Shown piece after piece: positions 1,928 to 63,075 of a stretch of DNA of 64,000 nt. The first letter of the stretch is position 1. Every line of letters begins with the position of its first letter. The stretch spans positions 20,351-84,350 of the forward strand of contig JAEYOM010000004.1 of assembly GCA_023411715.1 (NCBI GenBank). Direction: 5' to 3'. The notes under the pieces were generated by a model. It saw only the letters and a program-made list of their open reading frames with translations, had not been told where the DNA came from and did not search any database. Both the position numbers and the translations under genes were made by a program. This DNA comes from Bacillota bacterium (GTDB lineage Bacteria; Bacillota; Clostridia; Acetivibrionales; DTU013).

Positions 1928-2779
1928 ATGTGGGTCTATGATAAAAAGCTGGAATATCCCGTTAAAATAAAAAATAGCAACCCAAGGCTTGCAAAATATG
2001 TTATAACACAATACGGCGGACCCGACGGCGAGCTTGCCGCATCGCTCAGATACCTGAGCCAGCGGTTCAGCATGCCCTTAGAAGTAGCCAAGGCTACGCT
2101 CAACGATATCGGTACGGAAGAAATGGCTCATCTCGAGATCGTCGGCGCCATTGTGCATCAGCTTACGAAAGGCGTTCCGCCTAAAGTACTTGAGAAGGAA
2201 GGTCTAGGAGGCTATTTTGCCGACCATGACCGTGCAGTGTATCCCGTAAATGCATCAGGCTCGCCTTTTACCGCAGCCTATATAGCATCGAAGGGCGATC
2301 CCGTGGCCGACCTGGTCGAAGACCTTGCCGCTGAACAAAAAGCGCGTGCTACGTATGAAAACCTTATAAACATGATGGACGATCCTGACGTGATAGATCC
2401 GCTTCGCTTCCTGAGAGAGCGTGAAGTAGTACATTTTCAGCGTTTCGGTGAAGTATTGCGTATCGTGCAGGAAAAACTCAATGAGAAGCCGTATTTCGTC
2501 AAGAAGCCCGAATTAATGAATGTGAGCCCGGCAGCTGCAAATATAAGTCCAGCGACTAATGTAAGCCCGGTATCCAATGTAAGCCCGGCAGCTGTAAGCC
2601 CGATCTCGAACGTAAGCCCGATCTCAAACGTAAGTCCCGCGACTAACGTAAGCCCTGTCTCAAACGTCGGCCCGGCAGCTGTAAGTCCGATCTCGAACGT
2701 AAGCCCGGTTTCGAATGTAAGTCCCGCGACTATGAAAAAACCATCTTTCGTGAGTCCGGAAGCGACGGGTAAAAAATAA
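1928..2779 (+). CDS. cotJC: Spore coat protein CotJC (manganese-catalase/ferritin-like fold) with a repetitive C-terminal extension
   Basis: N-terminal ~190 aa (YPVKIKNSNPRLAKYVITQYGGPDGELAASLRYLSQRF...EEMAHLEIVG...EREVVHFQRFGE) is CotJC-like. Residues ~198-268 are NVSP-type repeats. Confidence 0.85.
   Translation: MWVYDKKLEYPVKIKNSNPRLAKYVITQYGGPDGELAASLRYLSQRFSMPLEVAKATLNDIGTEEMAHLEIVGAIVHQLTKGVPPKVLEKEGLGGYFADHDRAVYPVNASGSPFTAAYIASKGDPVADLVEDLAAEQKARATYENLINMMDDPDVIDPLRFLREREVVHFQRFGEVLRIVQEKLNEKPYFVKKPELMNVSPAAANISPATNVSPVSNVSPAAVSPISNVSPISNVSPATNVSPVSNVGPAAVSPISNVSPVSNVSPATMKKPSFVSPEATGKK
2519..2731. repeat. In-frame tandem 18-nt-class repeats encoding (N-V/I-S-P-x-x)n in the cotJC tail
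   Basis: DNA repeats aatgtaagcccggtatcc / aacgtaagcccgatctcg and similar. Peptide: NVSPAAANISPATNVSPVSNVSPAAVSPISNVSPISNVSPATNVSPVSNVGPAAVSPISNVSPVSNVSPAT. Confidence 0.9.
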
Positions 2780-2968: not shown

Positions 2969-4315
2969 ATGGACGGTATTCAGATTACAAAAGTCCAAGC
3001 CCGCAGATTCATGCTGAAATATCACGGGCTTTACGGCAAAAGGCTTCCCAGGGGCAAAAAAGGCATCCTCGAATACGTGCGAAGAGTCGGATGCATACAG
3101 TACGATCCTCTCAATATCGTGGGCCATAACCAGGAACTGGTGCTCCAGTCCAGGATAGACGGCTTCAAACCTGCCATGCTTCAGGAACTCCTATATAATG
3201 ACCGATTGCTGCTGGACGGCTGGGACAAGGTCATGTCGATCTATCTCACCTCAGACTGGCCGTACTTCAGCCGTTACAGGGCATCACAGCTCGAATGGCT
3301 CGGCAGTCCCGACAAGCCCGTTGTCCCCTACCTTCCGCTTATCAGAAACGAGCTTCGGCAGCGTGGCCCTCTTTCCTCCATCGACCTGGAATATGATCAG
3401 GCGGTACGGTGGCCGTGGGGACCTACGCGCGTTTCCAGAGCGGCATTGGAAAGCATGTGGTTCTGGGGTGAACTCATTATACATCACAAGGTCAATACGA
3501 GGAAATATTATGATTTTGCTTCCGGGTACCTGGCGGGAGATTTGCTGAGCACACCCGACCCGAATGAAACCTTTGAACAGTACAGAGACTGGCGCATATG
3601 CCGGAGGATAGGCGGTACGGGATTTTTATGGGACAGGCCCGGCGATGCCTGGCTGGAGATACCCGAAACAAAGACGCCCGAGCGCAGGGAAAGCATTCAA
3701 AGGCTTACGGCCGCCGACAAGCTTTCGGAGATAAACGTGGAAGGAATAAAGGCGCCGCTTTATATGAGGACCTGCGATATGCCGGTATTGGAAGAGATTC
3801 TGAGCGAACAGTCCGGTGCTCAGGCCTCTTCTGCGAAGCTTTCGGCATCTTCCGCGAAGCTTTCGGCATCTTCCGCGAAAGACGACGCGGCTTCTGATAC
3901 AGGCAGCTTCCGCAGTGCTTCGCGTACACCATCCCCGCGCGCCCATATCCTCGCCCCGCTCGACAACCTGCTGTGGGATCGCAGGCTTGTAAAGGAGATA
4001 TTTGATTTCGACTACCGGTGGGAGGTCTACAAACCACAGTCTGAACGCAATTACGGCTATTATGTCCTGCCGGTCCTGTACGGCGACCGGTTTATCGCCA
4101 GGTTTGAACCCGGGTTTGATAAAAAGTCCAAGGCGCTGATGATAAAAAATTGGTGGTGGGAAGCCGGCGTCAAGCCTACCAAACCGATGCAGCGCGGACT
4201 TGCAAAGTGTTTCAGGCTTTTTGCGGAATATCTCGGGACGGACAATATCGGGATGCCCCGGGACGGCTCAGGTAATACTGATGACAGTATAACCTGCTGG
4301 CTCGATGGAATATGA
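2969..4315 (+). CDS. YcaQ/AlkZ-like winged-helix protein (DUF1006-type putative crosslink-repair DNA glycosylase)
   Basis: MDGIQITKVQARRFMLKYHGLYG...GILEYVRRVGCIQYDPLNIVGHNQELVLQSR and a C-terminal YGYYVLPVLYGDRFIARFE motif typical of the family. Start chosen at ATG 2969. Confidence 0.6.
   Translation: MDGIQITKVQARRFMLKYHGLYGKRLPRGKKGILEYVRRVGCIQYDPLNIVGHNQELVLQSRIDGFKPAMLQELLYNDRLLLDGWDKVMSIYLTSDWPYFSRYRASQLEWLGSPDKPVVPYLPLIRNELRQRGPLSSIDLEYDQAVRWPWGPTRVSRAALESMWFWGELIIHHKVNTRKYYDFASGYLAGDLLSTPDPNETFEQYRDWRICRRIGGTGFLWDRPGDAWLEIPETKTPERRESIQRLTAADKLSEINVEGIKAPLYMRTCDMPVLEEILSEQSGAQASSAKLSASSAKLSASSAKDDAASDTGSFRSASRTPSPRAHILAPLDNLLWDRRLVKEIFDFDYRWEVYKPQSERNYGYYVLPVLYGDRFIARFEPGFDKKSKALMIKNWWWEAGVKPTKPMQRGLAKCFRLFAEYLGTDNIGMPRDGSGNTDDSITCWLDGI
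3827..3880. repeat. 21-nt in-frame tandem repeat (2.5 copies) inside the YcaQ-like gene
   Basis: tcttcYgcgaagctttcggca repeated, encoding SSAKLSASSAKLSASSAK. Confidence 0.9.
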
Positions 4316-4444: not shown

Positions 4445-6778
4445 TTAAGGAGTTATCGCCCTGCCGTATTCATCGCCGAACCCGCTCTGGACCGACTCCT
4501 TGCCAAAGTATTTCATAAGCTGCTTTAAATCGGGGTCCTTAACTTTATTATAATATAGACTGTACTGATCCTCCTTCTCCTCGCTGGTCTTGAAACGTTT
4601 TTGCAGCACAAGCAGTCCATTGTACATCAGCGCGAGGTCGTCCTCCCTGCCCTTAAGCAGCTTTGCCGCTTCATCAGGCTTTTCGGTGTTGATCAGATTG
4701 AAAAATTCACTATAGTCTGACGTATCCATTTCCAGGTATTTTTTGATCAGCGGTTTGTAATCCGCGTAGAATGACCCATTATACCTGTAATTTTCGGTAA
4801 GCTGGGGCAAAAGCTCCAGCCTGTTCTGCAGTATATAGAGTATAATCAGGTCTCCCGCGCCTCCGCCCGTCCTTTCGTAAAACCGCTCATAATATTCGGT
4901 GGCTTTTTCGAATTTGCCCATATAACCGTAGTTGCGGCCTATCTGAGGCAGATCATAAGGATTGCTGCTCTTCATAAGCAGTTCAAGGCCTTTCTGCAAT
5001 TCGCCCGAATCGATATAAAGCGATCCGAGCACCGAAAGCAGCTCTTCGTTATCGGGTATTTCACTGATCAACCTCTCAAAATAGCCTTTTGCTTTTTCGG
5101 CGTCCTTGTACTTTAACGAAGACGTTTTACTGTCATATTCCCAGCCATTGTAATAAAGCTTGGCCAATACCTTCAAAGCGTGCAGACTCCCGACTCCTTC
5201 GGCCAGATCTCTTTCATACAGGCTGATCGCCTTGTCGTATTTTTTATCCAGCAATGCAAGATCAGCCTCGTTGAATTCGTCGCCGGCGACAGGCAGTATT
5301 TCCCTATGCCTGCTGGGGTATATGCCGTCGCTGCCGTACATGGTGTTGCCGTTATGGTCGTAGAAGGTTACATAATAGGCGTAATCGCCCGTATGATAAA
5401 ACGGCTCGAAGAGATAATACGGGTCGATACCGTCTGTACCGAAGGAAGCGCCCGTATTCATGCCCCTTTTACGCTCACTGGCAGTATCAAGTATATATTC
5501 TCCGGTTTTTATACTTTCCGAATAAAACATATTGTTGGCCATTATCCGCATGTCTTCAATATCACGCAGTTCTCCCGCGTAAATCGTATAATGATCCGCG
5601 TCTTCCGGCATGTTTACGCTGAAACGGAATTTTCCGCCCCCGATATCCTGCACGCTGACCATCCCGACCGTATCAAGAAATGCTATATCCTTTTTGATTG
5701 CAGTATTTCCTGTGAACTTCAAATTGTTGTCCCCTCCCATGTCGAGAGCCTTTCCCTGGACACGCTGCCAGTCGGCGCCTATAGCGATCACATAAATACC
5801 GTCGGGGATGTTCGTAAACCTGAATTTACCTTCCCTGTCCGTTACTGCAGTGCAGCGCACTCCGTCGCCTTGGCCGAACGTACTGCTCCAACCATTTCTT
5901 GTGGCTTCGTCTTTAAGGAAAATCGTTATATAAGGCGCCGGGCTGCCCTCTATACTGACGCAGCCGCTCAAAACATTATTGTTTTTTTCAGCCGTTTCAA
6001 CACTTCTCAGGTATTTAAAGCCCGACAGTTCGCTATTTATCTGCAGCAAGGGCTTTACAAGCGTTTCGCTGGGCTTTTGCGAAGTAAAAAACAAATTGGG
6101 TATTGCCGCCATCTCTTTATCGAAGCTATCCTTATCTTCCTTCATGTAGCAATAATATGCGTATAACGCGTGCCTGACCGTGGAATAACGGTCCTGCACG
6201 TTGAGATGTTCCTGCAGCACAGCCGCTCCCCTGTCCATCTCTCCGAGCCCCATATACATCGCCGCGAGGTGAAGTTTCCTTAGCGATTCAAGCTTGCCGT
6301 CCCTTATATAGTCAAGCTGTTCAAGCAGCTTGATGGCTTTTTCCCCGTAACCCGAAAAATAATTGGCCAGGGCGACATATATCGTGTATTCCGCCAGCGC
6401 ATCACTTTTCATGGCATGTCCGGCGATATCCCTGTATTGCGCATTGATCCTGTCTGCGCTTTCGGCCCCGATGTAGGAGCAGTTGAACGCAGTGAAACTT
6501 TCGGTGAAAAATAGTTTACTGAAATAGCCGAAGTTTTTATTTTCTACAAGAAGCTCGAGTTTCCTTTGCGCAGCCGAAACAGCGGCATTTGAAGCCGGAG
6601 CGCCCTCTGCGGCCCTGTCGTAATAAACGTCTGCCGCCGCGCCGTTTCCGGCCAACTCGCTGATCCTTCCCAGTAAGTAAAACATACGTCCCTGAAAAAG
6701 CAATAGAGCCGCGATCAAAACGAGCGCAGGCAGAATGATCAAAAGCAGGTGCTTAACCTTAATTCTTATATATCCCAT
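4445..6778 (-). CDS. Membrane-anchored TPR-repeat protein with a central carboxypeptidase-regulatory-like (Ig-like) domain
   Basis: 777 aa. N-terminal TM segment (LLLIILPALVLIAALLLF). Sequence EGKFRFTNIPDGIYVIAIG is typical of CarboxypepD_reg folds. TPR-like helical repeats lie on both sides. Last gene of the sigma/anti-sigma operon. Confidence 0.6.
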   Translation of the reverse strand: MGYIRIKVKHLLLIILPALVLIAALLLFQGRMFYLLGRISELAGNGAAADVYYDRAAEGAPASNAAVSAAQRKLELLVENKNFGYFSKLFFTESFTAFNCSYIGAESADRINAQYRDIAGHAMKSDALAEYTIYVALANYFSGYGEKAIKLLEQLDYIRDGKLESLRKLHLAAMYMGLGEMDRGAAVLQEHLNVQDRYSTVRHALYAYYCYMKEDKDSFDKEMAAIPNLFFTSQKPSETLVKPLLQINSELSGFKYLRSVETAEKNNNVLSGCVSIEGSPAPYITIFLKDEATRNGWSSTFGQGDGVRCTAVTDREGKFRFTNIPDGIYVIAIGADWQRVQGKALDMGGDNNLKFTGNTAIKKDIAFLDTVGMVSVQDIGGGKFRFSVNMPEDADHYTIYAGELRDIEDMRIMANNMFYSESIKTGEYILDTASERKRGMNTGASFGTDGIDPYYLFEPFYHTGDYAYYVTFYDHNGNTMYGSDGIYPSRHREILPVAGDEFNEADLALLDKKYDKAISLYERDLAEGVGSLHALKVLAKLYYNGWEYDSKTSSLKYKDAEKAKGYFERLISEIPDNEELLSVLGSLYIDSGELQKGLELLMKSSNPYDLPQIGRNYGYMGKFEKATEYYERFYERTGGGAGDLIILYILQNRLELLPQLTENYRYNGSFYADYKPLIKKYLEMDTSDYSEFFNLINTEKPDEAAKLLKGREDDLALMYNGLLVLQKRFKTSEEKEDQYSLYYNKVKDPDLKQLMKYFGKESVQSGFGDEYGRAITP

Positions 6779-7274
6779 CAGTCTGCCCTCCCTGATTACT
6801 ATCCACTACCGCTATGCTGCTATTTCTGATATCCTCGGCCGAAACGCGCGTAATGCCGATACAGGCATAGACTATGCCCGATACGGTGATCAGCAGCGCA
6901 ACTACCAGGGGTTTAACAGGGATCCGCAGTTCCATGTTCATGAAGAACTGAAACCTTTCCCTCCATGCCTTCGCCCCGGACGCTCTCCGGTCCGATGTGG
7001 CGGGGTTGCTGCGTAATACGGCCCTGCTACGTGATGTGGCCCTGCCGTTTCCATCGGCGCTTCCATAATCGGCTGCGCCCCCGTAAAGTGCGGCCCTGTC
7101 GCGTATTGCCATCCTGTTGTGTGATGCGACCCTGCCGTTTATGTCGGCGTTCTCGTGCGAAGCGGCCTTTCTATGCTCGGCGACCCGTTCGAGCACGCTG
7201 TTCCTGCTTTTATCCGAAAACACGATGTTTTTCAGTTCCGAATCAAGCTTATCCCTGAAATTCATATCACCCAT
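6759..7274 (-). CDS. Putative membrane anti-sigma factor
   Basis: 171 aa. Its start overlaps the ECF sigma stop by 8 nt. Single TM near the C-terminus (PLVVALLITVSGIVYACIGI). Contains an internal Gly/Arg/Ala repeat. Confidence 0.5.
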   Translation of the reverse strand: MGDMNFRDKLDSELKNIVFSDKSRNSVLERVAEHRKAASHENADINGRVASHNRMAIRDRAALYGGAADYGSADGNGRATSRSRAVLRSNPATSDRRASGAKAWRERFQFFMNMELRIPVKPLVVALLITVSGIVYACIGITRVSAEDIRNSSIAVVDSNQGGQTDGIYKN

Positions 7275-7821: not shown

Positions 7822-8012
7822 GACCTCCGCATATATATAGATGCGGTATATCTGGAAATGGTTGCATTAAGACAGGATTTTTTTAAATGATTGAATGCGC
7901 TGCTGATTCCGAGCAGCAAAATCCCTATTCAGCTGCTCGCGCTGCCATTGATTTCTTGCAGCAAAATCATTGTTCAGCTGCTTTCGCTGCTATTGATTCC
8001 GCTGCCAAAAAC

Positions 8013-8873
8013 TCAGCTGCTCGCGCTGCCGTAGCGCCTCATGCCTCTCCTCCAGAAGAATACGCACAGGAAGCCGAACACTGCGCCTACCCCCAGAGAC
8101 AGAAGCCAGTAGCGACCGTCCAGCACATCCGCCAGGAATTGCGCGGGAATCGTCGCCATAAGCCCGTACGGCAGCAAAACATAAAAAATAAGCTTCCAGG
8201 CGCCTTTGAAAACGATGCCCGGTATCCTGAACGAAAAGTTCACGAGCTCACCTTCTATTTCGCAGAAAGCGTCTATCCTCACGAAACGGAACGCCAGCGT
8301 ACGTATTATTACCATCAGATCGTACATCAAAAAGTACATGACCAGCAGCAAAAAAACATACCCGGCTACAGCCCCGGCGGTTACGGTTATCCCGAGCATC
8401 CCGACTCCATACGCGACCATCATGATGCCCGGCACAATGAGTACGAGCGAGCCCGGGTCGATATTTTCAAAAGATACGTAAAAGAGCGTACCCACAGGTC
8501 TCACTATATATTGGTCAAGCGTTCCGGTCCTGATTTTCTCCGGTATCGTCAGCACGCCGAAAAAGTAGGTCGCCATGTACGAAGCGTCAAGGATGGTGAA
8601 TGTCCCGATAAATACTATCATCTGATATACATTCCAGCCGTTGAGCGTGCCGACATTGAGGAATATGGCCGAGAACATCGCGATCTGGAGCACGAACAGG
8701 CTCTGATCCGTAATGAAGGCCATCCAGAAATTGAAGCTGTACATCATGCTTTTATTGAGCCTGACCTTCATAAATACGTAGAGAAGCCTGGCATACTTCT
8801 TCATACGGCCCATATATCTCGCGGCATTTTCCGCAAATCTTCCGCTGAAACGCGCATCTGCTTTATTGTTCAT
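8013..8873 (-). CDS. ABC-2 type transporter permease
   Basis: 286 aa, multi-TM. Translationally coupled (4-nt overlap) to the upstream permease and the ATPase. Confidence 0.7.
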   Translation of the reverse strand: MNNKADARFSGRFAENAARYMGRMKKYARLLYVFMKVRLNKSMMYSFNFWMAFITDQSLFVLQIAMFSAIFLNVGTLNGWNVYQMIVFIGTFTILDASYMATYFFGVLTIPEKIRTGTLDQYIVRPVGTLFYVSFENIDPGSLVLIVPGIMMVAYGVGMLGITVTAGAVAGYVFLLLVMYFLMYDLMVIIRTLAFRFVRIDAFCEIEGELVNFSFRIPGIVFKGAWKLIFYVLLPYGLMATIPAQFLADVLDGRYWLLSLGVGAVFGFLCVFFWRRGMRRYGSASS

Positions 8874-15309: not shown

Positions 15310-15315
15310 TATGGG

Positions 15316-15428
15316 GCGTACCGGCGGCAGGCTGTGTCGCGAGTGTGCCATACCGGCGGCAGGCTGTGTCGCGAGTGCGCCGTACCGGCGGCAGGCTGTG
15401 TCGCGAGTGCGCCGTACCGGCGGCTTTT
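15316..15428. repeat. 32-bp GC-rich tandem repeat, 3.3 copies, starting 7 nt after the dinB stop
   Basis: The core ccggcggcaggctgtgtcgcgagtgcgccgta recurs with starts at 15321, 15353, 15385 and 15417 (last copy partial), then ttttt. Confidence 0.95.
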
Positions 15429-24104: not shown

Positions 24105-24385
24105 ACTAAAAAACCCCTCGATCCCAGATAAAGGGACGAGAGGATATGACTCACGCGTTACCACCCAAATTACCGCTGTAATTACAGTCTTCGACTGTTA
24201 TTCACGGCAGTCTCTTGATCATACCTTTAACGGAGTGACCCGGCTTATCGTACTTGCGCTTTCACGCTTTCAGCAAGCGGCTCCCGGAGGATTTTCAGGA
24301 AACTCTTCCGCAGCCTCGCACCGGCCGGCTGCTCTCTGTTGGATTAGCGATCCTTACTCGTTCCGATCATAGCAATAAAATATTA
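24105..24385 (-). promoter_or_regulatory. T-box riboswitch leader of ileS
   Basis: The minus strand carries AACAGAGAGCAGCC (stem I AGAGA element), the T-box sequence AAUUUGGGUGGUAACGCGUGA (24151-24170), and the terminator CCUCUCGUCCCUUUAUCUGGGAUCGAGGGGUUUUUU. I could not assign the specifier codon with confidence. Confidence 0.85.
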
Positions 24386-32214: not shown

Positions 32215-32356
32215 AGCAAACCCTCCTCTTTATTTTAATTCCGTCGGCGGAGCCCAGGCGCTTATAATGGGCTGCATTTCATATAACATCTCAGTAGTCG
32301 CAACGCCGATGAACTGGACCCCCGGAGCCCTTCTCCCTGGCAGTGCTCGTCACCAC

Positions 32357-32480
32357 GGATGCATGGGCGAGCAGCAGGCTTTGCCTGCGACCAGCCCGGA
32401 TGCATGGGCGAGCAGCAGGCTTTGCCTGCGACCAGCCCGGTTGTATGGGCGAGCTGCAGGCTACTTTATTCCTGTAGTCT
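32357..32480. repeat. REP-A hairpin element, 3 tandem copies (41-nt period)
   Basis: ggatgcatgggcgagcagcaggctttgcctgcgaccagccc at 32357 and 32398 (identical). A diverged third copy from 32439 overlaps the stop of the 32466 ORF. Confidence 0.95.
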
Positions 32481-35484: not shown

Positions 35485-35601
35485 CTAAACATCCTATATG
35501 GATGTTTTAGCGGAAATCCGCGCCTTATGGCGCTAAACATCCTCTTTGAATGTTTTAGCGGAAATCCGCGCCTTAGGGCGCTAAACATCCTATATGGATG
35601 T
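35485..35601. repeat. 48-bp tandem repeat (2.4 copies) of alternating hairpins, overlapping the spoIVB stop
   Basis: ctaaacatcc starts at 35485, 35533 and 35581. Unit: ctaaacatcctatatggatgttttagcggaaatccgcgccttatggcg. Hairpins: aaacatcc/ggatgttt and gcgcc/ggcgc. Confidence 0.95.
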
Positions 35602-36876
35602 ATTTTTCAGCATGGTTTCAATAAATATCCCATAACCTCTTGTCGGGTCGTTTACAAGGACATGCGTCACGGCTCCGATGATCTTTCCATTTTGTATGAT
35701 AGGGCTGCCCGACATCCCCTGTACTATCCCCCCTGTCGTACTGAGCAGACGCTGGTCCGTTACCTTTATGATCATGCCTTTTGAACCATTGAGGTTCTGC
35801 CTGGAAACCTTCTGGATCATGATATCGTATTCTTCAATCTTTTTGCCGTCAATATTTGATAGGATAGTTGCAGGACCTTCTGTGATCTCCGCCCTGACAC
35901 CTACAGGATAGAGCTTCCCCGGTATTCTCGCAACAGAACCCCGGTTGATCTTGCCATAAATGCCGATATTGCTGTTTGTTTGTATAACGCCAAGCTTTGT
36001 GCCTTCCGAAAATATGCCTTTCAGTTCACCCGGATCGCCCTGCGTTCCTTTTTTTATACCCAAAATGCTCGACTCCATTATTTCGCCCGATTCCACCGAC
36101 ATAAGCGTGCCTGTGTCTATATCGGTGATTCCGTGCCCGAGCGCACCGAACCTTCCGGTGTTCATATCGTAATAAGTAAGCGTGCCTATACCGGCCGTAC
36201 TGTCCCTTACCCAAAGTCCGATGTGATATTTATTATCATCCGAAGACATTACCGGCGAAACCATTGCGTCAACAGTATCATTACCTGAGCTGTAACAAAT
36301 TTTCAACGGCTGCCCGTCACTCTGCTCAATAATATCTATCAATTCTTCGACACTTGCGATAAGCTTGTCATTGACTGAAACGATTTTATAACCGGGCCTT
36401 ATTCCGCTGTTTCTTACAGGGATTATCTTCTGGCCGTTGTTTACGACGTCGGAAATACCTATTACGAGTATGCCGTCTAGCTTTATCTTGACGCCTATGG
36501 TATTACCGCACGCTACGACCTGTTTGTTCGATACTATATCGACATTTATCGTCTTTACCGGCAGAACACCGAAAAAGCGCAAATTAAGCTTTACACTGCC
36601 TCCTCTGTCCGAACTGATGGATACAGGTTCAGAAATACCGATTGGATTATTTGAAGATTCGAGGTTTTCGCCATTAATTTCAATAATGCCTTCCGTATCG
36701 GCTTTTATGCTGATAGGGAAAATACTGTCTATATTATAGGTATATTCTTCCCCTTCTATCAGTATCATCTCGCCCGGTACGGTTAGCTGGACCTTTATAT
36801 AAGATACTGCTATCGCAGTAAGGGCTGAAATTGCCAAAACAACCAGTGCTTTCCTCAAAAATGTCAGTTTCCTCAT
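35590..36876 (-). CDS. spoIVB: SpoIVB serine peptidase (S55)
   Basis: 428 aa. PDZ region, GIGTLTYYD...GRFGALGH and GMSGSPIIQNGKIIGAVTHV catalytic motifs. Confidence 0.95.
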   Translation of the reverse strand: MRKLTFLRKALVVLAISALTAIAVSYIKVQLTVPGEMILIEGEEYTYNIDSIFPISIKADTEGIIEINGENLESSNNPIGISEPVSISSDRGGSVKLNLRFFGVLPVKTINVDIVSNKQVVACGNTIGVKIKLDGILVIGISDVVNNGQKIIPVRNSGIRPGYKIVSVNDKLIASVEELIDIIEQSDGQPLKICYSSGNDTVDAMVSPVMSSDDNKYHIGLWVRDSTAGIGTLTYYDMNTGRFGALGHGITDIDTGTLMSVESGEIMESSILGIKKGTQGDPGELKGIFSEGTKLGVIQTNSNIGIYGKINRGSVARIPGKLYPVGVRAEITEGPATILSNIDGKKIEEYDIMIQKVSRQNLNGSKGMIIKVTDQRLLSTTGGIVQGMSGSPIIQNGKIIGAVTHVLVNDPTRGYGIFIETMLKNTSI

Positions 36877-43890: not shown

Positions 43891-43956
43891 CGACTTAAAC
43901 CTCCATATCAGCAATAAAGGACGTATCCTGAATCAGGATGCATCCCAGATGATTAA

Positions 43957-44593
43957 GTAAAAACCAGGTGGCAATATATTGAGTAAATTTTGCGGCTTAG
44001 GTCAGGCAGGATTTCCCCCGGAAATACCGATTTGTCGCCAAACCGGCGGTTTCCCTTTAAATTTCCGGCCGCAGCGTTACCGCTGTCGGGGCCTGATTAC
44101 CACTTAGTCCACACTGCAATCCCCAATATATTTCATTTGGAACAGCCTAGGGGTTTTCCCCGGCAGTCTGTCCGTTTCCTAGCCTCTTTTGCAAATAGGG
44201 TTTCAAATAGCGATAATGCGCTCATACCGGCCAGTAATCCTGCATCTGATCCATTATCCACCGTATTCACTCAAGGCAGGCTACGCTGTCCACAGCATCA
44301 AATGATACCGCATAACAGGTTCAATCCCTGATCGTAGTTGATACCAAGCTTCAAAATCCCTTTTTGAATATTCAAAGCCTCTTTCTTCCACAAGTCAGGG
44401 TCTCCACGGTAAAGGGGTCAACGCCTGCATGCCATTGCAGATCGCCCCTGAACCTTAACTCCCAGCACCAGCCCACCACTGGGCGTAGCAAGCCGACACA
44501 AGGAACTTCATCGATATGCCCTTTAACGGATTTTTAGGCCCGTCCTGAGAAACGTCAGTACTGACTAGAATACTGCGCCACCTTGTTTTTTGA
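43957..44593 (-). ncRNA. ole: Large structured ncRNA, proposed OLE (ornate, large, extremophilic) RNA
   Basis: About 640 nt with no credible ORF inside a packed operon. Own promoter. 5' AAGGUGGC pairs with 3' GCCACCUGG, followed by a U-run. A GNRA-capped helix (ACAGCG-GUAA-CGCUGC) exists only on the minus strand. The context ispA-RNA-oapA-dxs-tlyA is diagnostic. No covariance-model search was possible here. Confidence 0.7.
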
Positions 44594-44599
44594 ATTCTT

Positions 44600-45648: not shown

Positions 45649-45882
45649 TCACTGTCCTAAAGCGGGCATCTCCTTTTCCAATATTCCGTTTTCGCCTTCT
45701 ATCAGTATAGTAATACTGCGCTCCGCCTCATCAAGCTTTTTGTTGCAGAACTTCGTAAGTTCGACACCCCTCTGGAAACAGTTTATCGAATCCTCGAGGG
45801 TAAGCTCGCCTTTTTCAAGCTTTTTAACTATCTCTTCGAGCTCCGCTATAGCCTGTTCGAAACTTGCACCTTTTTCACTCAT
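45649..45882 (-). CDS. xseB: Exodeoxyribonuclease VII small subunit
   Basis: Start moved to MSEKGASFEQAIAELEEIVKKLEKGELTLEDSINCFQRGVEL (45882). Confidence 0.9.
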   Translation of the reverse strand: MSEKGASFEQAIAELEEIVKKLEKGELTLEDSINCFQRGVELTKFCNKKLDEAERSITILIEGENGILEKEMPALGQ

Positions 45883-45924
45883 ATTTTTATCCCCCTCCGG
45901 GTTTCCCAGCATATCTTCAATTTT

Positions 45925-46060
45925 TAGGCATCGTTAACATATGACTTCCGCTGATCTTTTCCGGAAAACTTCACTAACCAGGCTGCATGGGCGAGTAGCA
46001 TGCGCAGTATGCGACCAGCCCGCTCCATTTTCCGTTAAAGAAGCGGAAGTAATATTTTAG
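45925..46060. repeat. REP-B hairpin element, copy 1, carrying a nested REP-A insertion (45980-46021)
   Basis: taggcatcgttaa...acttccgct...cggaaaa cttcactaacc [42-nt insert] gctccattttccg...agcggaagtaatatttta. Collinear with copy 2 (60416-60510) except for the insert. Confidence 0.9.
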
Positions 46061-47346
46061 TCGAGTCTTATTTGCACGCCTGGCCCCTTATCGATATCTC
46101 CCGGATCGCCCACTCCGCCTGAATCTCTGCCATACGGCTTTTCGCTTATTTCCTCTATTCGGCAGCTCAGAGTGCCATCCGTGACATAAACCCTGAGGCT
46201 GTCGCCGATATTTACGGAATGAATGGATTTCACCAGAGTATCGTCTTTTTCGGCACGTATTATACCATAGCCCCTTGCCAGTGAATTCAGAGGGCTCAGG
46301 GAATCCAACCTTGCCGCCAGCAGCGAGAGCCTGTTCCTGTACTGTATGCTCAATACTGAGAGCGCCTTATGCAGGTAACGTTTCTGAACGTCGAGCAGCA
46401 TGCGCTCCTGGTATATCTTGTTGTAGGGCTGTCTGAACGCGACGCTTTCTCCAAGCCTCTTCAAAGTGAGCCTTTCCATTGAGGTCTTTTTAACAATTGC
46501 ATTACGCAGGCGCATTTTAAGGCTATCCAGCCTGTTCTCGACCACTGATCTTTCCGGCATAACCAGTTCTGCCGCGGCCGAAGGGGTTGATGCCCTGACA
46601 TCGGCCACAAAATCGGATATTGTGAAATCCGTTTCATGCCCGACAGCCGAAATCACCGGTATGCGGGATTGATATATGCTCCTTGCGACAACTTCCTCGT
46701 TGAAGGCCCAGAGCTCCTCAAGTGATCCTCCGCCCCTCGCAACGATGATGACGTCGACATTGTCAAGTTCGTTGAGCCGGCGCACCGCCCCGGCTATCTG
46801 CCCCGAGGCCGCCTCACCCTGCACCTGTACGGGATATACCTTTATATTTACATTGTAGAATCTTCTGCTGAGGATGTTGATTATATCGCGTACAACGGCG
46901 CCCGTTGAAGATGTGACAACTCCGATCGAACCCGGCAAATAAGGGAGCTTCCTTTTTCTCGCTTCATCAAAAAGCCCTTCTGCCGAAAGTTTTTGCTTAA
47001 GCTTCTCGAAAGCTACATATAGCGCGCCGACACCGTCAGGCTGTATCTCTTCAGCATATAGCTGATATTGCCCATCGCGTTCAAATACGGAAATATACCC
47101 GCGTACCAGTACTTTCATTCCGTCCTCGGGTTCGAACACTACAGAGGCCGCATGCGATCGGAACATTACGCATTTTAGAACGGATTTTTCATCTTTGATG
47201 GTAAAATAGAAATGACCTGAATAGTGGCTTTTAAAATTGGATATCTCACCCTTCACCCAGATGCCTGAGAGTATGATATCCCTTGAAATCAGGTCTTTGA
47301 TATATTTATTCAACTCCGAGACCGTCAAAACGTTATTTGTTGGCAT
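46057..47346 (-). CDS. xseA: Exodeoxyribonuclease VII large subunit
   Basis: 429 aa. OB-fold N-terminus (VSELNKYIKDLISRD...WVKGEISNFKSHYSGHFYFTIKDE) and GRGGGS-like ARGGGSLEELWAFN. Confidence 0.95.
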   Translation of the reverse strand: MPTNNVLTVSELNKYIKDLISRDIILSGIWVKGEISNFKSHYSGHFYFTIKDEKSVLKCVMFRSHAASVVFEPEDGMKVLVRGYISVFERDGQYQLYAEEIQPDGVGALYVAFEKLKQKLSAEGLFDEARKRKLPYLPGSIGVVTSSTGAVVRDIINILSRRFYNVNIKVYPVQVQGEAASGQIAGAVRRLNELDNVDVIIVARGGGSLEELWAFNEEVVARSIYQSRIPVISAVGHETDFTISDFVADVRASTPSAAAELVMPERSVVENRLDSLKMRLRNAIVKKTSMERLTLKRLGESVAFRQPYNKIYQERMLLDVQKRYLHKALSVLSIQYRNRLSLLAARLDSLSPLNSLARGYGIIRAEKDDTLVKSIHSVNIGDSLRVYVTDGTLSCRIEEISEKPYGRDSGGVGDPGDIDKGPGVQIRLD

Positions 47347-60108: not shown

Positions 60109-60378
60109 TCAAGGATTGTGCCTGGGATTCCTCTTTACGAGGACGGCTGCCTTTGTGATTGCTGCAATAACGTCGACTTCGAACTGCTGCCTCAGCGTAT
60201 CAATCTTCGAGTACAGCTCGCCCTTTTCAGTTACTATGTACTTGGGCGGCAGATCATTGAGGGCTATTGCAGCGATATCGAGCAGGCACTTGTCGCAGGT
60301 GCACACATTGATGTCCGAAAGGATTTCCTTCATCTGGTTGAATACGATCTCTTCCATATAATTTTTGATTTGCGGCAT
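60109..60378 (-). CDS. comFB: ComFB-family late-competence-type small protein
   Basis: 89 aa. NVCTCDKCLLDIAAIALNDLPPKY is ComFB-typical. Confidence 0.75.
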   Translation of the reverse strand: MPQIKNYMEEIVFNQMKEILSDINVCTCDKCLLDIAAIALNDLPPKYIVTEKGELYSKIDTLRQQFEVDVIAAITKAAVLVKRNPRHNP

Positions 60379-60415
60379 ATGATTTCCCCCTTAAATAATT
60401 TATTTGCTCTATGCT

Positions 60416-60510
60416 TAGGCATCGTTAAAAAATAACATCCGCTAATCATTTACGGGGAACTACACTAACCGCTCCATTCCCCGTATAAGAAGCGGAAGTA
60501 ATTTTTTAGC
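60416..60510. repeat. REP-B hairpin element, copy 2 (no insert)
   Basis: taggcatcgttaa...acatccgct...tacgggga actacactaaccgctccat tccccgta...agcggaagtaatttttta. Hairpin with T-runs on both strands. Confidence 0.9.
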
Positions 60511-60542
60511 CGAGCCTTAACAGAAATTGTGACTCCGCCGGT

Positions 60543-61364
60543 TCAACCGCCCATGTAAATCAAAAACAGATCCCAACCCCACATGATAGTAATGAAGGCT
60601 CCGATAACGATAAACGGCCCGAATGCGATAGTGTCCTTTCTCTTCTTCAAACCCGAAACCATCATCAAAAGCGAGAGGACGCCCCCCAGCACGACTGAAA
60701 GCAAAAGTGCCTCCATGCATAGTCTCCAGCCGAGAAAGAGCCCTATCGGGGCCATAAGCTTGACATCTCCCATACCGAGAGCGTCATCGGACCTGTATAT
60801 CAGCGAACCGAGTATCGCCACCAGCAGCAGGAAGCCTGATCCCGGCAGTATTCCTGCCAAAGGGGTCCACCATTTTTCATCCCCGAATATTTCAACCTGG
60901 GGATAGAAGCAATTATATGCGAAAAATGCCATTCCGCCAATCAGGCCGGCTATGACAAGCCCGTTCGGAATGATCCTGTGTTCTAAGTCGATAAAGAACA
61001 CCGCGATCAGTATAGTCATCAGATATGCATAAGCAAAAAATGATACCGAAAACCCGAACTTGTAAAACAGGGCTGTGAGAATAGCCGCCGTTAGAAGCTC
61101 AACAAGCGGATACCTCGGTGAAATACGCTCTCCGCAATGTCTGCAGTGGCCTTTGAGAATAGCGTAGCTGAAAACCGGGACGAGGTCTCTTGCAGTCAGG
61201 CGCTTTCCGCATTTTGTACATGAAGATGGCGGCGCGATTATCGATTTACCCTGAGGGACCCTGTAAATAAGAACATTTGCAAAAGAGCCGACAAACAGGC
61301 CCAGAACAAATATTGCCGCAAAAGCAAACGCCATAACTCCTCCTGACCTTTCATTGAAAATCAA
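60543..61364 (-). CDS. Prepilin peptidase (A24 family; PilD/ComC-like)
   Basis: Zn-finger CTKCGKRL...CRHCGERI and catalytic Asp region LGMGDVKLMAPIG. True start may be MAFAFAAIF at 61334. Confidence 0.9.
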   Translation of the reverse strand: MIFNERSGGVMAFAFAAIFVLGLFVGSFANVLIYRVPQGKSIIAPPSSCTKCGKRLTARDLVPVFSYAILKGHCRHCGERISPRYPLVELLTAAILTALFYKFGFSVSFFAYAYLMTILIAVFFIDLEHRIIPNGLVIAGLIGGMAFFAYNCFYPQVEIFGDEKWWTPLAGILPGSGFLLLVAILGSLIYRSDDALGMGDVKLMAPIGLFLGWRLCMEALLLSVVLGGVLSLLMMVSGLKKRKDTIAFGPFIVIGAFITIMWGWDLFLIYMGG

Positions 61365-62854: not shown

Positions 62855-63034
62855 TGCCTCCCGGTTTATATAAATTATTAGCTTTTCATTTATGTACAGA
62901 TGATATCGCGCTTTCTGTTATAACGCATCAGTTCACAGAAAATTTTTCGGCAACAGATTTCGCCAAGGCGAAATGTTTCATTAAAGTAGTATTTCTGCAA
63001 AGCAGAAATCCATTGTAGAAAAATTTTCTTACTC

Positions 63035-63075
63035 AGGATGCATGGGCGAGCAGATGACATAATCATCGACCAGCC
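63035..63075. repeat. REP-A hairpin element, solitary copy
   Basis: aggatgcatgggcgagcag-atgacataatcat-cgaccagcc. The flanks are conserved and the central stem is fully substituted with compensating bases. Confidence 0.85.

What the first reader, a model, noticed from the sequence alone, without database searches (positions are those of the whole stretch)
60416..60510. REP-B: a conserved two-tier hairpin with compensatory changes, T-runs on both strands, placed just upstream of xseB and comFB
Both copies share the outer stem ACWTCCGCT/AGCGGAAGT and a conserved loop ACTWCACTAACCGCTCCAT. The inner stem differs with compensation: CGGAAAA/TTTTCCG in copy 1 versus TACGGGGA/TCCCCGTA in copy 2. Each is followed by a T-run on the + strand (AATTTTTTA) and on the - strand (TATTTTTT). 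It could therefore act as a bidirectional terminator between xseA|xseB and pilD|comFB. The conserved loop and the conserved TTAACGATGCCTAA box on its minus-strand 3' side are more than a terminator needs. Candidate roles are an sRNA, a protein-binding RNA, or the substrate hairpin for the REP-A insertion machinery.
Basis: seen in the sequence. Interest (0 to 1): 0.6.

Follow-up and report, generated by a model that had tools for sequence, protein, structure and literature searches.

The report
Small mobile hairpin repeat inside operons
The "REP-B" hairpin is a roughly 100-bp mobile palindromic repeat that inserts at TAA sites, often stop codons, between genes of uncultured Clostridia; it is a new family of an already familiar kind of element, not a new kind of regulator.

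Summary
The whole 105-bp stretch 60415-60519 is one long imperfect hairpin. The second copy lies at 45924-46070 and carries a 42-nt REP-A insertion in its apical loop.

I found 13 copies at 12 independent sites, in the window and five related genomes or metagenome contigs. Flanking sequences and neighbouring genes are unrelated between sites.

Three comparisons with close relatives show empty sites: pilD|comFB, xseA|xseB and deoC|deoD-like (PNP). Each empty site has one TAA. Each filled site has TAA on both sides of a 99-bp core. REP-B is therefore a non-autonomous mobile repeat.

- The hairpin is maintained: 97% of cells paired and five pairs with double changes.
- It folds better as minus-strand RNA in all 13 copies.
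- It lies in sense orientation at all eight sites between co-directional genes.
- The one orthologous pair evolves about three times slower than third codon positions.

A strong bidirectional terminator is unlikely, because most copies sit inside tight operons. Weak attenuation or RNA processing is possible but untested. The mobilising enzyme is unknown. There is no match in Rfam, plasmids or phages.

The parts
60415..60519 (-). REP-B copy 2: a 99-bp core (60418-60516) flanked by TAA on both sides, read on the minus strand (60517-60519 and 60415-60417). It lies between the pilD stop (60543) and the comFB start (60378).
   Evidence: Covariance-model hit of 119.9 bits, E=3.5e-31. Folds. The orthologous site is empty in L021, L024, L026 and L027.
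60491..60516 (-). 5' terminal arm on the minus strand (GGCTCGGCTAAAAAATTACTTCCGCT). It includes the A-run and the outer stem.
   Evidence: Pairs with 60418-60443 in the consensus structure.
60418..60443 (-). 3' terminal arm on the minus strand (AGCGGATGTTATTTTTTAACGATGCC).
   Evidence: Column pairs 6-102 and 17-91 in these arms show changes on both sides.
60452..60484 (-). Inner stem (60452-60459 with 60477-60484) enclosing the 17-nt apical loop at 60460-60476. On the minus strand the loop reads UGGAGCGGUUAGUGUAG.
   Evidence: Three of the 8 inner-stem pairs show changes on both sides. Alignment columns 45-55, the loop core, are invariant, and the later-found copy L003b has the same loop.
45924..46070 (-). 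REP-B copy 1, between xseA and xseB. TAA repeats are at 46068-46070 and 45924-45926. The xseA stop codon (46057-46059) lies inside the element.
   Evidence: Covariance-model hit of 94.1 bits. L011 carries the orthologous copy. The site is empty in L030, L031, L029 and L033, where xseA and xseB overlap by 8 nt.
45980..46021 (.). A 42-nt REP-A unit inserted in the apical loop of copy 1. The boundary is ambiguous by 2 nt (CC).
   Evidence: Absent from the orthologous copy in L011. Other REP-A units are at 32351-32473 and about 63030-63075.

Best explanation
REP-B is a non-autonomous mobile palindromic repeat, MITE-like in the broad sense. It has a 99-bp core and is found in a narrow group of uncultured, OLE-RNA-carrying Clostridia. 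The best named relatives of the flanking proteins are Acetivibrionales.

**Shown**
- It inserts at a TAA trinucleotide and ends up with TAA on both sides.
- The target is often the stop codon of the upstream gene, or lies a few bases from it. The element therefore lands between genes, closes all reading frames, and can supply the stop codon.
- At xseA it replaced a 17-residue tail with IRLD*.
- Its two halves pair along almost the whole length, giving about 38 base pairs, a 17-nt conserved loop, and A-run/U-run arms.

**Inferred**
- Inside operons it is co-transcribed in one orientation, the window's minus strand. There it forms a very stable RNA hairpin of -35 to -54 kcal/mol.
- Selection keeps that hairpin intact.
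- The hairpin most plausibly acts as passive RNA punctuation: a weak attenuator, a 3'-end barrier or an RNase III substrate. These effects have been reported for Correia, ERIC and BIME repeats.
- It is not a dedicated regulator or an efficient terminator.

**Unknown**
- The enzyme that moves it. Its terminal arms begin GGC.
- The repeat is always TAA, never TTA, in the element's frame. This points to an orientation-specific mechanism, either a single-strand Y1-type enzyme or asymmetric target capture. Selection for a stop codon is the alternative.
For: **Mobility**
- There are 13 copies at 12 independent sites, in the window, four MAGs and one JGI contig. Boundaries are sharp and flanks unrelated.
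- Three filled/empty comparisons were made. pilD|comFB has a 164-nt spacer against 54-62 nt in four relatives. xseA|xseB is covered. deoC|PNP is covered.
- Each empty site has one TAA; each filled site has TAA on both sides of the core.
- A degenerate half-copy remnant is present in L012.

**Structure**
- 96.9% of cells are paired.
- Five pairs have changes on both sides; only 2 of 500 shuffles reach this.
- Sliding the partners drops pairing to 40-58%.
- A later-found copy adds a third pair type (G-C) at column pair 6-102.

**Strand**
- On the minus-strand reading there are 14 G.U cells against 3 A.C cells.
- All 13 copies fold 0.7-13.8 kcal/mol better as minus-strand RNA.
- All 8 sites with co-directional neighbours on both sides have that strand in sense.

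**Constraint in place**
- The orthologous pair (window and L011) differs at 9 of 101 positions.
- Third codon positions of the flanking genes differ at 0.20-0.33, and a neighbouring spacer at 0.20.
- One of those differences is an A-U to G-C double change. The G.U intermediate is seen in paralogous copies.

**No specific function**
- Neighbours include exonuclease VII, prepilin peptidase/ComFB, DeoC/PNP, FliK, hydrogenase- or complex-I-like subunits, an M16 peptidase and an ABC ATPase.

**Precedents**
- Comparable effects of such repeats on transcripts are reviewed in PMC10969869 and PMC3049150.
Against: - No autonomous element or transposase with matching ends was found. Only about 350 kb of related DNA could be searched.
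- The repeat length is ambiguous between 1 and 3 bp. A non-duplicative mechanism, with the target on one side and the element's own TAA on the other, fits equally well.
- The 3' TAA is degraded in 5 of 12 sites.
- Nine copies were ascertained with a pattern that fixed parts of the loop and one arm. Invariance there is partly circular.
- Copies fall into 2-3 subfamilies, so covarying cells are not independent events.
- The G.U excess could reflect transcription- or replication-linked C-to-T bias rather than selection on RNA.
- Slow divergence of the orthologous pair rests on one pair. Gene conversion among copies could also produce it.
- No expression data exist.
Confidence: 0.75

Rival explanations
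1. REP-B is primarily an intrinsic, possibly bidirectional, transcription terminator module. The long hairpin followed by a U-run stops RNA polymerase on either strand.
For: - The architecture is A-run, stem, U-run.
- Minus-strand tails score -4.0 to -4.6 on a simple T-tail measure, within the top 1-2% of window 15-mers. A canonical local terminator scores -5.6.
- In the L008 genome REP-B lies where relatives carry a canonical terminator hairpin, and that hairpin is absent from L008.
- One copy (L007) lies at the 3' end of a gene in a convergent arrangement.
- SPRITE in pneumococci is a precedent for a terminator-like repeat (PMC3049150).
Against: - Eight of 8 sites with known co-directional neighbours lie inside tight gene pairs. 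These include xseA|xseB, which overlap in relatives, deoC|PNP with a 28-nt spacer in relatives, and adjacent hydrogenase- or complex-I-like subunits.
- The orientation found there is the one with the better U-tail. That is the opposite of what is expected if termination were strong and harmful.
- The xseA|xseB insertion has persisted across two lineages that are 87.6% identical.
- The consensus scan does not call the element, because the loop is 17 nt and the stem composite.
- Plus-strand tails are weak, at -2.3 to -3.4.
- SPRITE, by contrast, is enriched between convergent genes (PMC3049150).
Confidence: 0.15
2. REP-B is a specific structured RNA: a cis-regulatory leader, a protein-binding element or an sRNA. 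The conserved apical loop would be a recognition site, and mobility would be secondary.
For: - The loop core (UGGAGCGGUUAG) is invariant while the stems change by compensation. This includes the two copies found without any constraint on the loop, L020 and L003b.
- There are strand-specific G.U pairs.
- Evolution in place is slow.
- The element sits 13-50 nt upstream of start codons at most sites.
- The loop resembles the 3' outer arm (AGCGGUUAGU against AGCGGAAGU). An alternative pairing or a pseudoknot with the invariant 5' arm is therefore geometrically possible. This is read directly from the sequence and has not been tested.
Against: - Downstream genes share no functional theme.
- There is no promoter-like site in or next to the element.
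- There is no Rfam match even at E<=10.
- Some copies are in the opposite orientation or between divergent genes (L007, L009).
- Two copies tolerate 32-42-nt insertions in the supposedly critical loop.
- The loop and its proposed alternative partner never vary, so covariation cannot support that pairing.
Confidence: 0.1
3. The two window copies are a recent segmental duplication or a chance palindrome.
For: Before related genomes were examined, only two copies were visible in the 64-kb window.
Against: - Flanks share no similarity.
- Eleven further copies exist elsewhere.
- The two window copies belong to different subfamilies.
- Matches were 2 against 0.03 expected by chance.
Confidence: 0.01

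Closest known systems
RUP (repeat unit of pneumococcus) and BOX elements of Streptococcus pneumoniae
   Same: - It is a small repeat of a Firmicute; RUP is about 107 bp.
- It is tightly folded, with the terminal inverted repeats paired to each other.
- It shows a short target duplication and dispersed intergenic copies.
- Repeats insert into one another.
- Flanking genes share no functional theme (PMC3049150, PMC10969869).
   Different: - No sequence relationship was tested or is expected.
- RUP is proposed to be moved by IS630-Spn1; no candidate enzyme is known for REP-B.
- Pneumococcal repeats are over-represented between convergent genes, whereas REP-B sits mostly inside operons in one orientation.
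- REP-B has about 40% G+C, against 27.5% for RUP.
Correia elements (NEMIS) of Neisseria and ERIC of enterobacteria
   Same: - These are roughly 100-150-bp imperfect palindromes that are co-transcribed with genes.
- Their long RNA duplex is cut by RNase III (Correia), or alters mRNA stability in an orientation-dependent way (ERIC) (PMC10969869, PMC3049150).
   Different: - REP-B has no promoter-like site.
- No RNase data exist for REP-B.
- Its repeat is TAA in a fixed orientation.
- The host lineage is unrelated.
[quoted passage not shown]
   Same: It is a mobile-looking repeat whose RNA resembles an oversized intrinsic terminator and which lies close to the 3' ends of genes (PMC3049150).
   Different: - SPRITE is a less tightly folded 18-bp duplex followed by a long U-rich tract, and is enriched between convergent genes.
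- REP-B pairs end to end, its U-run is paired with an A-run, and it sits within operons.
REP/REPIN elements moved by RAYT, and IS200/IS605-derived small elements
   Same: - Both are hairpin-forming repeats whose structure is maintained by compensation.
- Insertion is orientation-specific next to a short asymmetric target with no inverted terminal target, which would explain TAA always being in the same orientation. This comparison rests on my own knowledge of these families and was not tested here.
   Different: - REP-B has no conserved GTAG foot.
- Neither arm has a separate short palindrome.
- No RAYT or TnpA gene was seen in the DNA held.

Membership tests
MITE (miniature inverted-repeat transposable element), broad sense | Small (<300 bp), non-coding | tested here: met
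   The core is 99 bp. All three frames close within about 55 nt in either orientation, as read from the alignment.
MITE (miniature inverted-repeat transposable element), broad sense | Terminal inverted repeats | tested here: met
   The terminal arms GGCTCGGCTAAAA and GGCATCGTTAAAA pair imperfectly. In practice the whole element is one palindrome.
MITE (miniature inverted-repeat transposable element), broad sense | Target-site duplication shown by comparing filled and empty sites | tested here: met
   Three sites show one TAA when empty and TAA on both sides when filled. The duplicated length is ambiguous (1-3 bp), and a non-duplicative mechanism is not excluded.
MITE (miniature inverted-repeat transposable element), broad sense | Multiple dispersed copies at non-homologous loci, with presence/absence polymorphism | tested here: met
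   There are 12 independent sites in 6 genomes or contigs. Orthologous sites are empty in relatives.
MITE (miniature inverted-repeat transposable element), broad sense | A cognate autonomous IS with matching ends | not testable with these tools
   The whole genomes of the host MAGs could not be scanned. End motifs occur only in REP-B copies, one remnant and chance matches in the DNA held.
Intrinsic (Rho-independent) terminator | Short G+C-rich stem with a 3-8-nt loop, directly followed by a U-tract | tested here: inconclusive
   The consensus scan does not call it, since the loop is 17 nt and the stem is composite. The minus-strand U-tail scores within the top 1-2%.
Intrinsic (Rho-independent) terminator | Located at the ends of transcription units | tested here: not met
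   Eight of 8 sites with known co-directional neighbours lie within tight gene pairs. Only L007 and L008 look like ends of transcription units.
REP/REPIN (RAYT-associated) | A 20-40-nt palindromic unit with a conserved GTAG foot, in inverted doublets, with REPs flanking a RAYT gene | tested here: not met
   There is no conserved GTAG; GTAG appears only in a variable loop position of three copies. The arms are not self-palindromic. RAYT linkage could not be tested.
Any Rfam RNA family | Covariance-model match | tested here: not met
   No hit at gathering thresholds in the window except OLE and T-box. At E<=10 the only match in the searched stretch 60300-60620 is a chance snoRNA match over 60323-60396, outside the element.

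The most novel reading that the evidence does not exclude
REP-B is a transposable RNA module that host operons retain under purifying selection. In this reading it is a mobile hairpin whose minus-strand transcript sets the relative expression or stability of adjacent cistrons. Its invariant apical loop would be a specific docking site for a protein, or would pair alternatively with the invariant 5' arm. The same exposed loop would serve as a landing pad for other small hairpin repeats such as REP-A.
Probability: 0.2. Interest if true: 0.55.

Novelty: new member of a known kind. Interest (0 to 1): 0.3.

Why it matters
It adds a well-delimited small mobile repeat to a poorly studied lineage of uncultured cellulolytic-type Clostridia. 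The case is unusually clean, with three filled/empty site pairs.

It shows how such an element can land on a stop codon, regenerate that stop, and even split two overlapping, translationally coupled genes (xseA/xseB) without being lost.

Three features hint that these repeats are not simply neutral once inside an operon: the fixed orientation inside operons, the strand-specific G.U pairs, and the slow divergence of the orthologous copy. This could be tested with metatranscriptomes.

For annotation, recognising REP-B avoids calling it a terminator, an sRNA or a riboswitch. It also explains the altered XseA C-terminus and the gene spacing.

Tried and rejected
- **Rfam.** Gathering thresholds found only OLE and T-box. 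At E<=10 there was only a chance snoRNA match next to the element.
- **tRNA-like origin of the loop.** ARAGORN found nothing.
- **Promoter inside the element.** No consensus site was found.
- **Plasmid, phage and viral-contig searches.** No match.
- **JGI metagenome scan using the arms only.** One true copy and six chance matches.
- **Search for IS ends or further copies.** End motifs and the covariance model turned up only known copies, one remnant and coding-sequence chance matches.
- **Replication-strand explanation of the orientation bias.** GC skew of 8-kb loci gave mixed signs and is dominated by local gene orientation, so the test was uninformative.
- **Mini-ORF in the loop (ATG GAG CGG TTA GTG ...).** Rejected: the stop position is not conserved and there is no ribosome-binding site.
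- **Riboswitch-like regulator.** Rejected because neighbouring genes share no theme.
- **Segmental duplication.** Rejected.

Full report
**Observation.** The outer stem is ACATCCGCT/AGCGGAAGT, the inner stem ACGGGGAA/TTCCCCGT, and the loop is the 17-nt CTACACTAACCGCTCCA. There are T-runs on both strands. The second copy is at 45924-46070. Its inner stem is CGGAAAA/TTTTCCG, so the two-pair compensation is real.

Four corrections are needed.
- The loop of copy 1 is interrupted by 42 nt of the REP-A repeat (45980-46021).
- Copy 1 has no clean T-runs.
- The similarity between the copies runs further than stated, over 60415-60519 and 45924-46070.
- The "TTAACGATGCCTAA box" is not an extra feature. 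It is the outermost arm of the palindrome and pairs with TTAGCCGAGCCTTA.

The whole element is therefore one roughly 105-nt imperfect hairpin. Its minimum free energy is -52 kcal/mol (z = -4.1) in minus-strand context and -40 kcal/mol (z = -5.9) on the plus strand. Both window copies lie between co-directional minus-strand genes. Copy 2 lies between a prepilin peptidase gene and comFB. Copy 1 lies between xseA and xseB, and the xseA stop codon sits inside the element.

**Where the window comes from.** The window matches a metagenome scaffold, LEMO22-1_SAMN17215444 scaffold_24. It carries an OLE RNA and a T-box. The closest named homologues of ComFB and XseB are from Acetivibrionales and other Clostridia MAGs.

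**More copies.** A pattern scan of one genome per species found nine true copies in four MAGs, JBDKVA01, JAEYOP01, JAFABI01 and JAEXNT01, plus two chance hits. A JGI metagenome scan that constrained only the arms found one further copy and six chance hits. A covariance model built from 12 copies recovered all of them at 94-126 bits. It also found one new, more divergent copy, L003b at 107 bits. It found nothing in roughly 190 kb from close relatives.

In total there are 13 copies at 12 independent sites, because L011 is the ortholog of window copy 1. Boundaries are sharp and flanks unrelated. There is no match in Rfam, plasmids, phages or viral contigs.

**It is an insertion.** Three sites can be compared with close relatives.
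1. *pilD|comFB.* The spacer is 164 nt in the window lineage and 54-62 nt in four relatives whose ComFB is 91-92% identical. L021 reads TTTCTTTAAAGCATAGAG. The window lineage reads TTTCTGT-TAA-[99-bp core]-TAA-GCATAGAG.
2. *xseA|xseB.* In relatives the two genes overlap by 8 nt. L030 reads CAGG-TAA-AGATAGAAGATATG. The window and L011 read CAGA/CAAA-TAA-[core]-TAA-AAAT(A/T)GAAGATATG. The insertion replaced the XseA tail VKIEDMMRNPEGDKNE* with IRLD* or IRLG*.
3. *deoC|PNP.* Relatives read GGATAT-TAA-AAAATAATC, where TAA is the deoC stop and the spacer is 28 nt. L010 reads GGATAC-TAA-[core]-TAA-TATAAAG.

In each case one TAA in the empty site corresponds to TAA on both sides of the core. The duplicated length cannot be fixed more precisely than 1-3 bp.

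Across sites, the 5' repeat on the minus-strand reading is TAA in 11 of 12, and it is never TTA. The 3' repeat is TAA in 7 of 12 and otherwise AAA, CAA or TAG. In five copies the 5' TAA is the stop codon of the upstream gene. A degenerate half-copy follows another stop codon in L012. A more distant relative, L008, lacks REP-B at pilD|comFB but has a copy at a different site.

**Structure and strand.** The consensus structure has 38 pairs and 96.9% of cells are paired. Five pairs show changes on both sides; 2 of 500 shuffles reach this. Sliding the partners by 1-3 columns gives only 40-58% pairing. The covarying pairs lie in the inner stem and also in the terminal arms: column pair 17-91 switches between U-A and A-U, and pair 6-102 shows C-G, U-A and, in L003b, G-C.

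Read as minus-strand RNA there are 14 G.U cells against 3 A.C cells. All 13 copies fold better in that orientation, by 0.7-13.8 kcal/mol. Alignment columns 45-55, the loop core, are invariant. Nine copies were ascertained with part of the loop fixed, but the two window copies, L020 and L003b were not, and all four share it.

Some caveats apply. The copies fall into two or three subfamilies, so cells are not independent events. Covariation of terminal arms is also what a symmetric DNA-binding enzyme would produce. A C-to-T bias on the coding or leading strand could mimic the G.U excess.

**Context.** At all eight sites where both neighbours are known and co-directional, the minus-strand reading is in sense. 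These are win1, win2, L003b, L008, L010, L012, L013 and L020, and the two-sided binomial p is 0.008. L003a is also in sense with its downstream gene. Three sites differ: L007 lies at the 3' end of a gene in a convergent arrangement, L009 lies between divergent genes, and L004 has unclear neighbours.

The neighbours have no common function, which argues against a pathway-specific regulator.

There are three candidate explanations for the orientation bias, and I could not separate them.
- Selection on the transcript.
- Insertion at TAA stop codons by an orientation-specific mechanism.
- Strand-specific single-strand insertion tied to replication. GC skew of 8-kb loci was uninformative on this point.

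**Constraint in place.** The orthologous copies in the window and L011 differ at 9 of 101 aligned positions. By comparison, third codon positions of the six flanking genes differ at 0.20-0.33, and a neighbouring spacer at 0.20. The OLE RNA differs at 0.043.

Two of the nine differences form an A-U to G-C compensatory change. The G.U intermediate is seen in three paralogous copies of the same genome as L011. This suggests purifying selection or homogenisation by gene conversion. It rests on a single ortholog pair.

**Terminator question.** The A-run/stem/U-run layout resembles a bidirectional terminator. Minus-strand tails score in the top 1-2% of window 15-mers on a simple T-tail measure, and plus-strand tails are weaker. 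In L008, REP-B occupies the position where five related loci carry a conserved canonical terminator hairpin, and L008 has no such hairpin.

Several points count against a strong terminator.
- The consensus scan does not call REP-B.
- Most copies sit within tight operons, where strong termination would silence downstream genes.
- The xseA|xseB copy has been kept in two lineages that are 87.6% identical.
- That copy has a degraded U-run in the window (-2.8) and a REP-A insertion in its loop.

I therefore rate strong termination as unlikely. Weak attenuation, 3'-end protection or RNase III processing remain plausible but untested. Comparable effects are documented for BIME, ERIC and Correia repeats (PMC3049150, PMC10969869).

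**Loop insertions.** Window copy 1 carries a 42-nt REP-A unit in the apical loop, and its ortholog L011 does not. L003a carries an unrelated 32-nt hairpin 8 nt away in the same loop, and the main stem still forms. Two of 13 copies therefore have insertions, both in the loop. This fits either a hot spot or the only tolerated position, and ascertainment favoured intact arms.

**Comparison with known kinds.** REP-B has the defining features of a small non-autonomous mobile repeat: small size, paired terminal arms, a short direct repeat at filled sites, dispersed copies, and presence/absence polymorphism. The cognate enzyme could not be sought.

In size, tight end-to-end folding and nesting of repeats, it is closest to pneumococcal RUP and BOX and to Correia and ERIC elements. 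It differs from SPRITE, which is terminator-like and enriched between convergent genes (PMC3049150). It lacks the GTAG foot and unit structure of REP/REPIN. The fixed orientation of an asymmetric TAA is unusual for a classical MITE with a TNA-type target, and it leaves a single-strand (Y1) mechanism open. That comparison rests on my own knowledge and was not tested here.

**Verdict.** REP-B is a new family of a known kind of element. It shows some signs of being more than neutral once inside operons.

**Confidence**

| Reading | Confidence |
|---|---|
| Mobile palindromic repeat | about 0.75 |
| Primarily a terminator | 0.15 |
| Specific structured regulatory RNA | 0.10 |

Interest is modest, at 0.3.

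Noticed in passing
window 32351-32473, 45980-46021, ~63030-63075: REP-A family of 41-42-nt units: three in tandem plus two singles. Each unit reads ..GGATGCATGGGCGAG-YAG-[variable hairpin with compensating changes]-CGACCAGCC. There is no Rfam match. Among the loci held it occurs only in the window lineage. Its right end CAGCCCG resembles the REP-B loop sequence CTAACCG at which it inserted, and tandem units regenerate that junction.
   Followed up: partly
window 43952-44597 (-) and 24129-24379 (-): A full-length OLE RNA (532 bits) lies downstream of xseB-ispA, and a T-box leader scores 123 bits. The OLE RNA differs at only 4.3% of positions from the JAEXNT01 ortholog.
   Followed up: no
L001 ~6017-6045; L021, L022, L026, L027 orthologous spacers; L008 754-860: Between the class IV aminotransferase gene and a Gate-domain membrane protein gene, five related loci share a canonical hairpin AAAAAGGAAGCA(T/A)AA(A/T)GCTTCCTTTTTTT. 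The L008 genome has REP-B at that place and no such hairpin.
   Followed up: partly
window 45882-45912 and 46057-46070: The 87-aa xseB ORF probably starts at the ATG at 45882, giving 77 aa with the ribosome-binding site GGAGGGGG, as in relatives of 74-79 aa. The former xseA tail-coding sequence survives as the untranslated xseB leader. XseA now ends IRLD*, encoded by REP-B.
   Followed up: yes
window 35485-35604: About 2.5 tandem copies of a 48-nt unit. Each contains the palindrome CTAAACATCC-TATA-TGGATGTTTTAG followed by CGGAAATCCGCGCCTTATGGCG.
   Followed up: no
L012 3362-3400: A degenerate left-half remnant of REP-B (TAAGGCATCGTTAATATACAACTCCAGCTGATT) lies directly after a stop codon TAA, in the opposite orientation to the full copy 1.3 kb away.
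   Followed up: partly
L003 4062-4166 and 7656-7792: Two REP-B copies in the same orientation bracket a single 1135-aa M16 peptidase gene with an SLH domain. The upstream copy carries a 32-nt extra hairpin in its loop.
   Followed up: partly
window 2538-2711, 3820-3899, 7000-7149, 7904-8030, 15312-15424: Several short tandem or near-tandem direct repeats with periods of 87, 21, 90, 45 and 32 nt were listed by the repeat finder. Their coding status was not examined.
   Followed up: no
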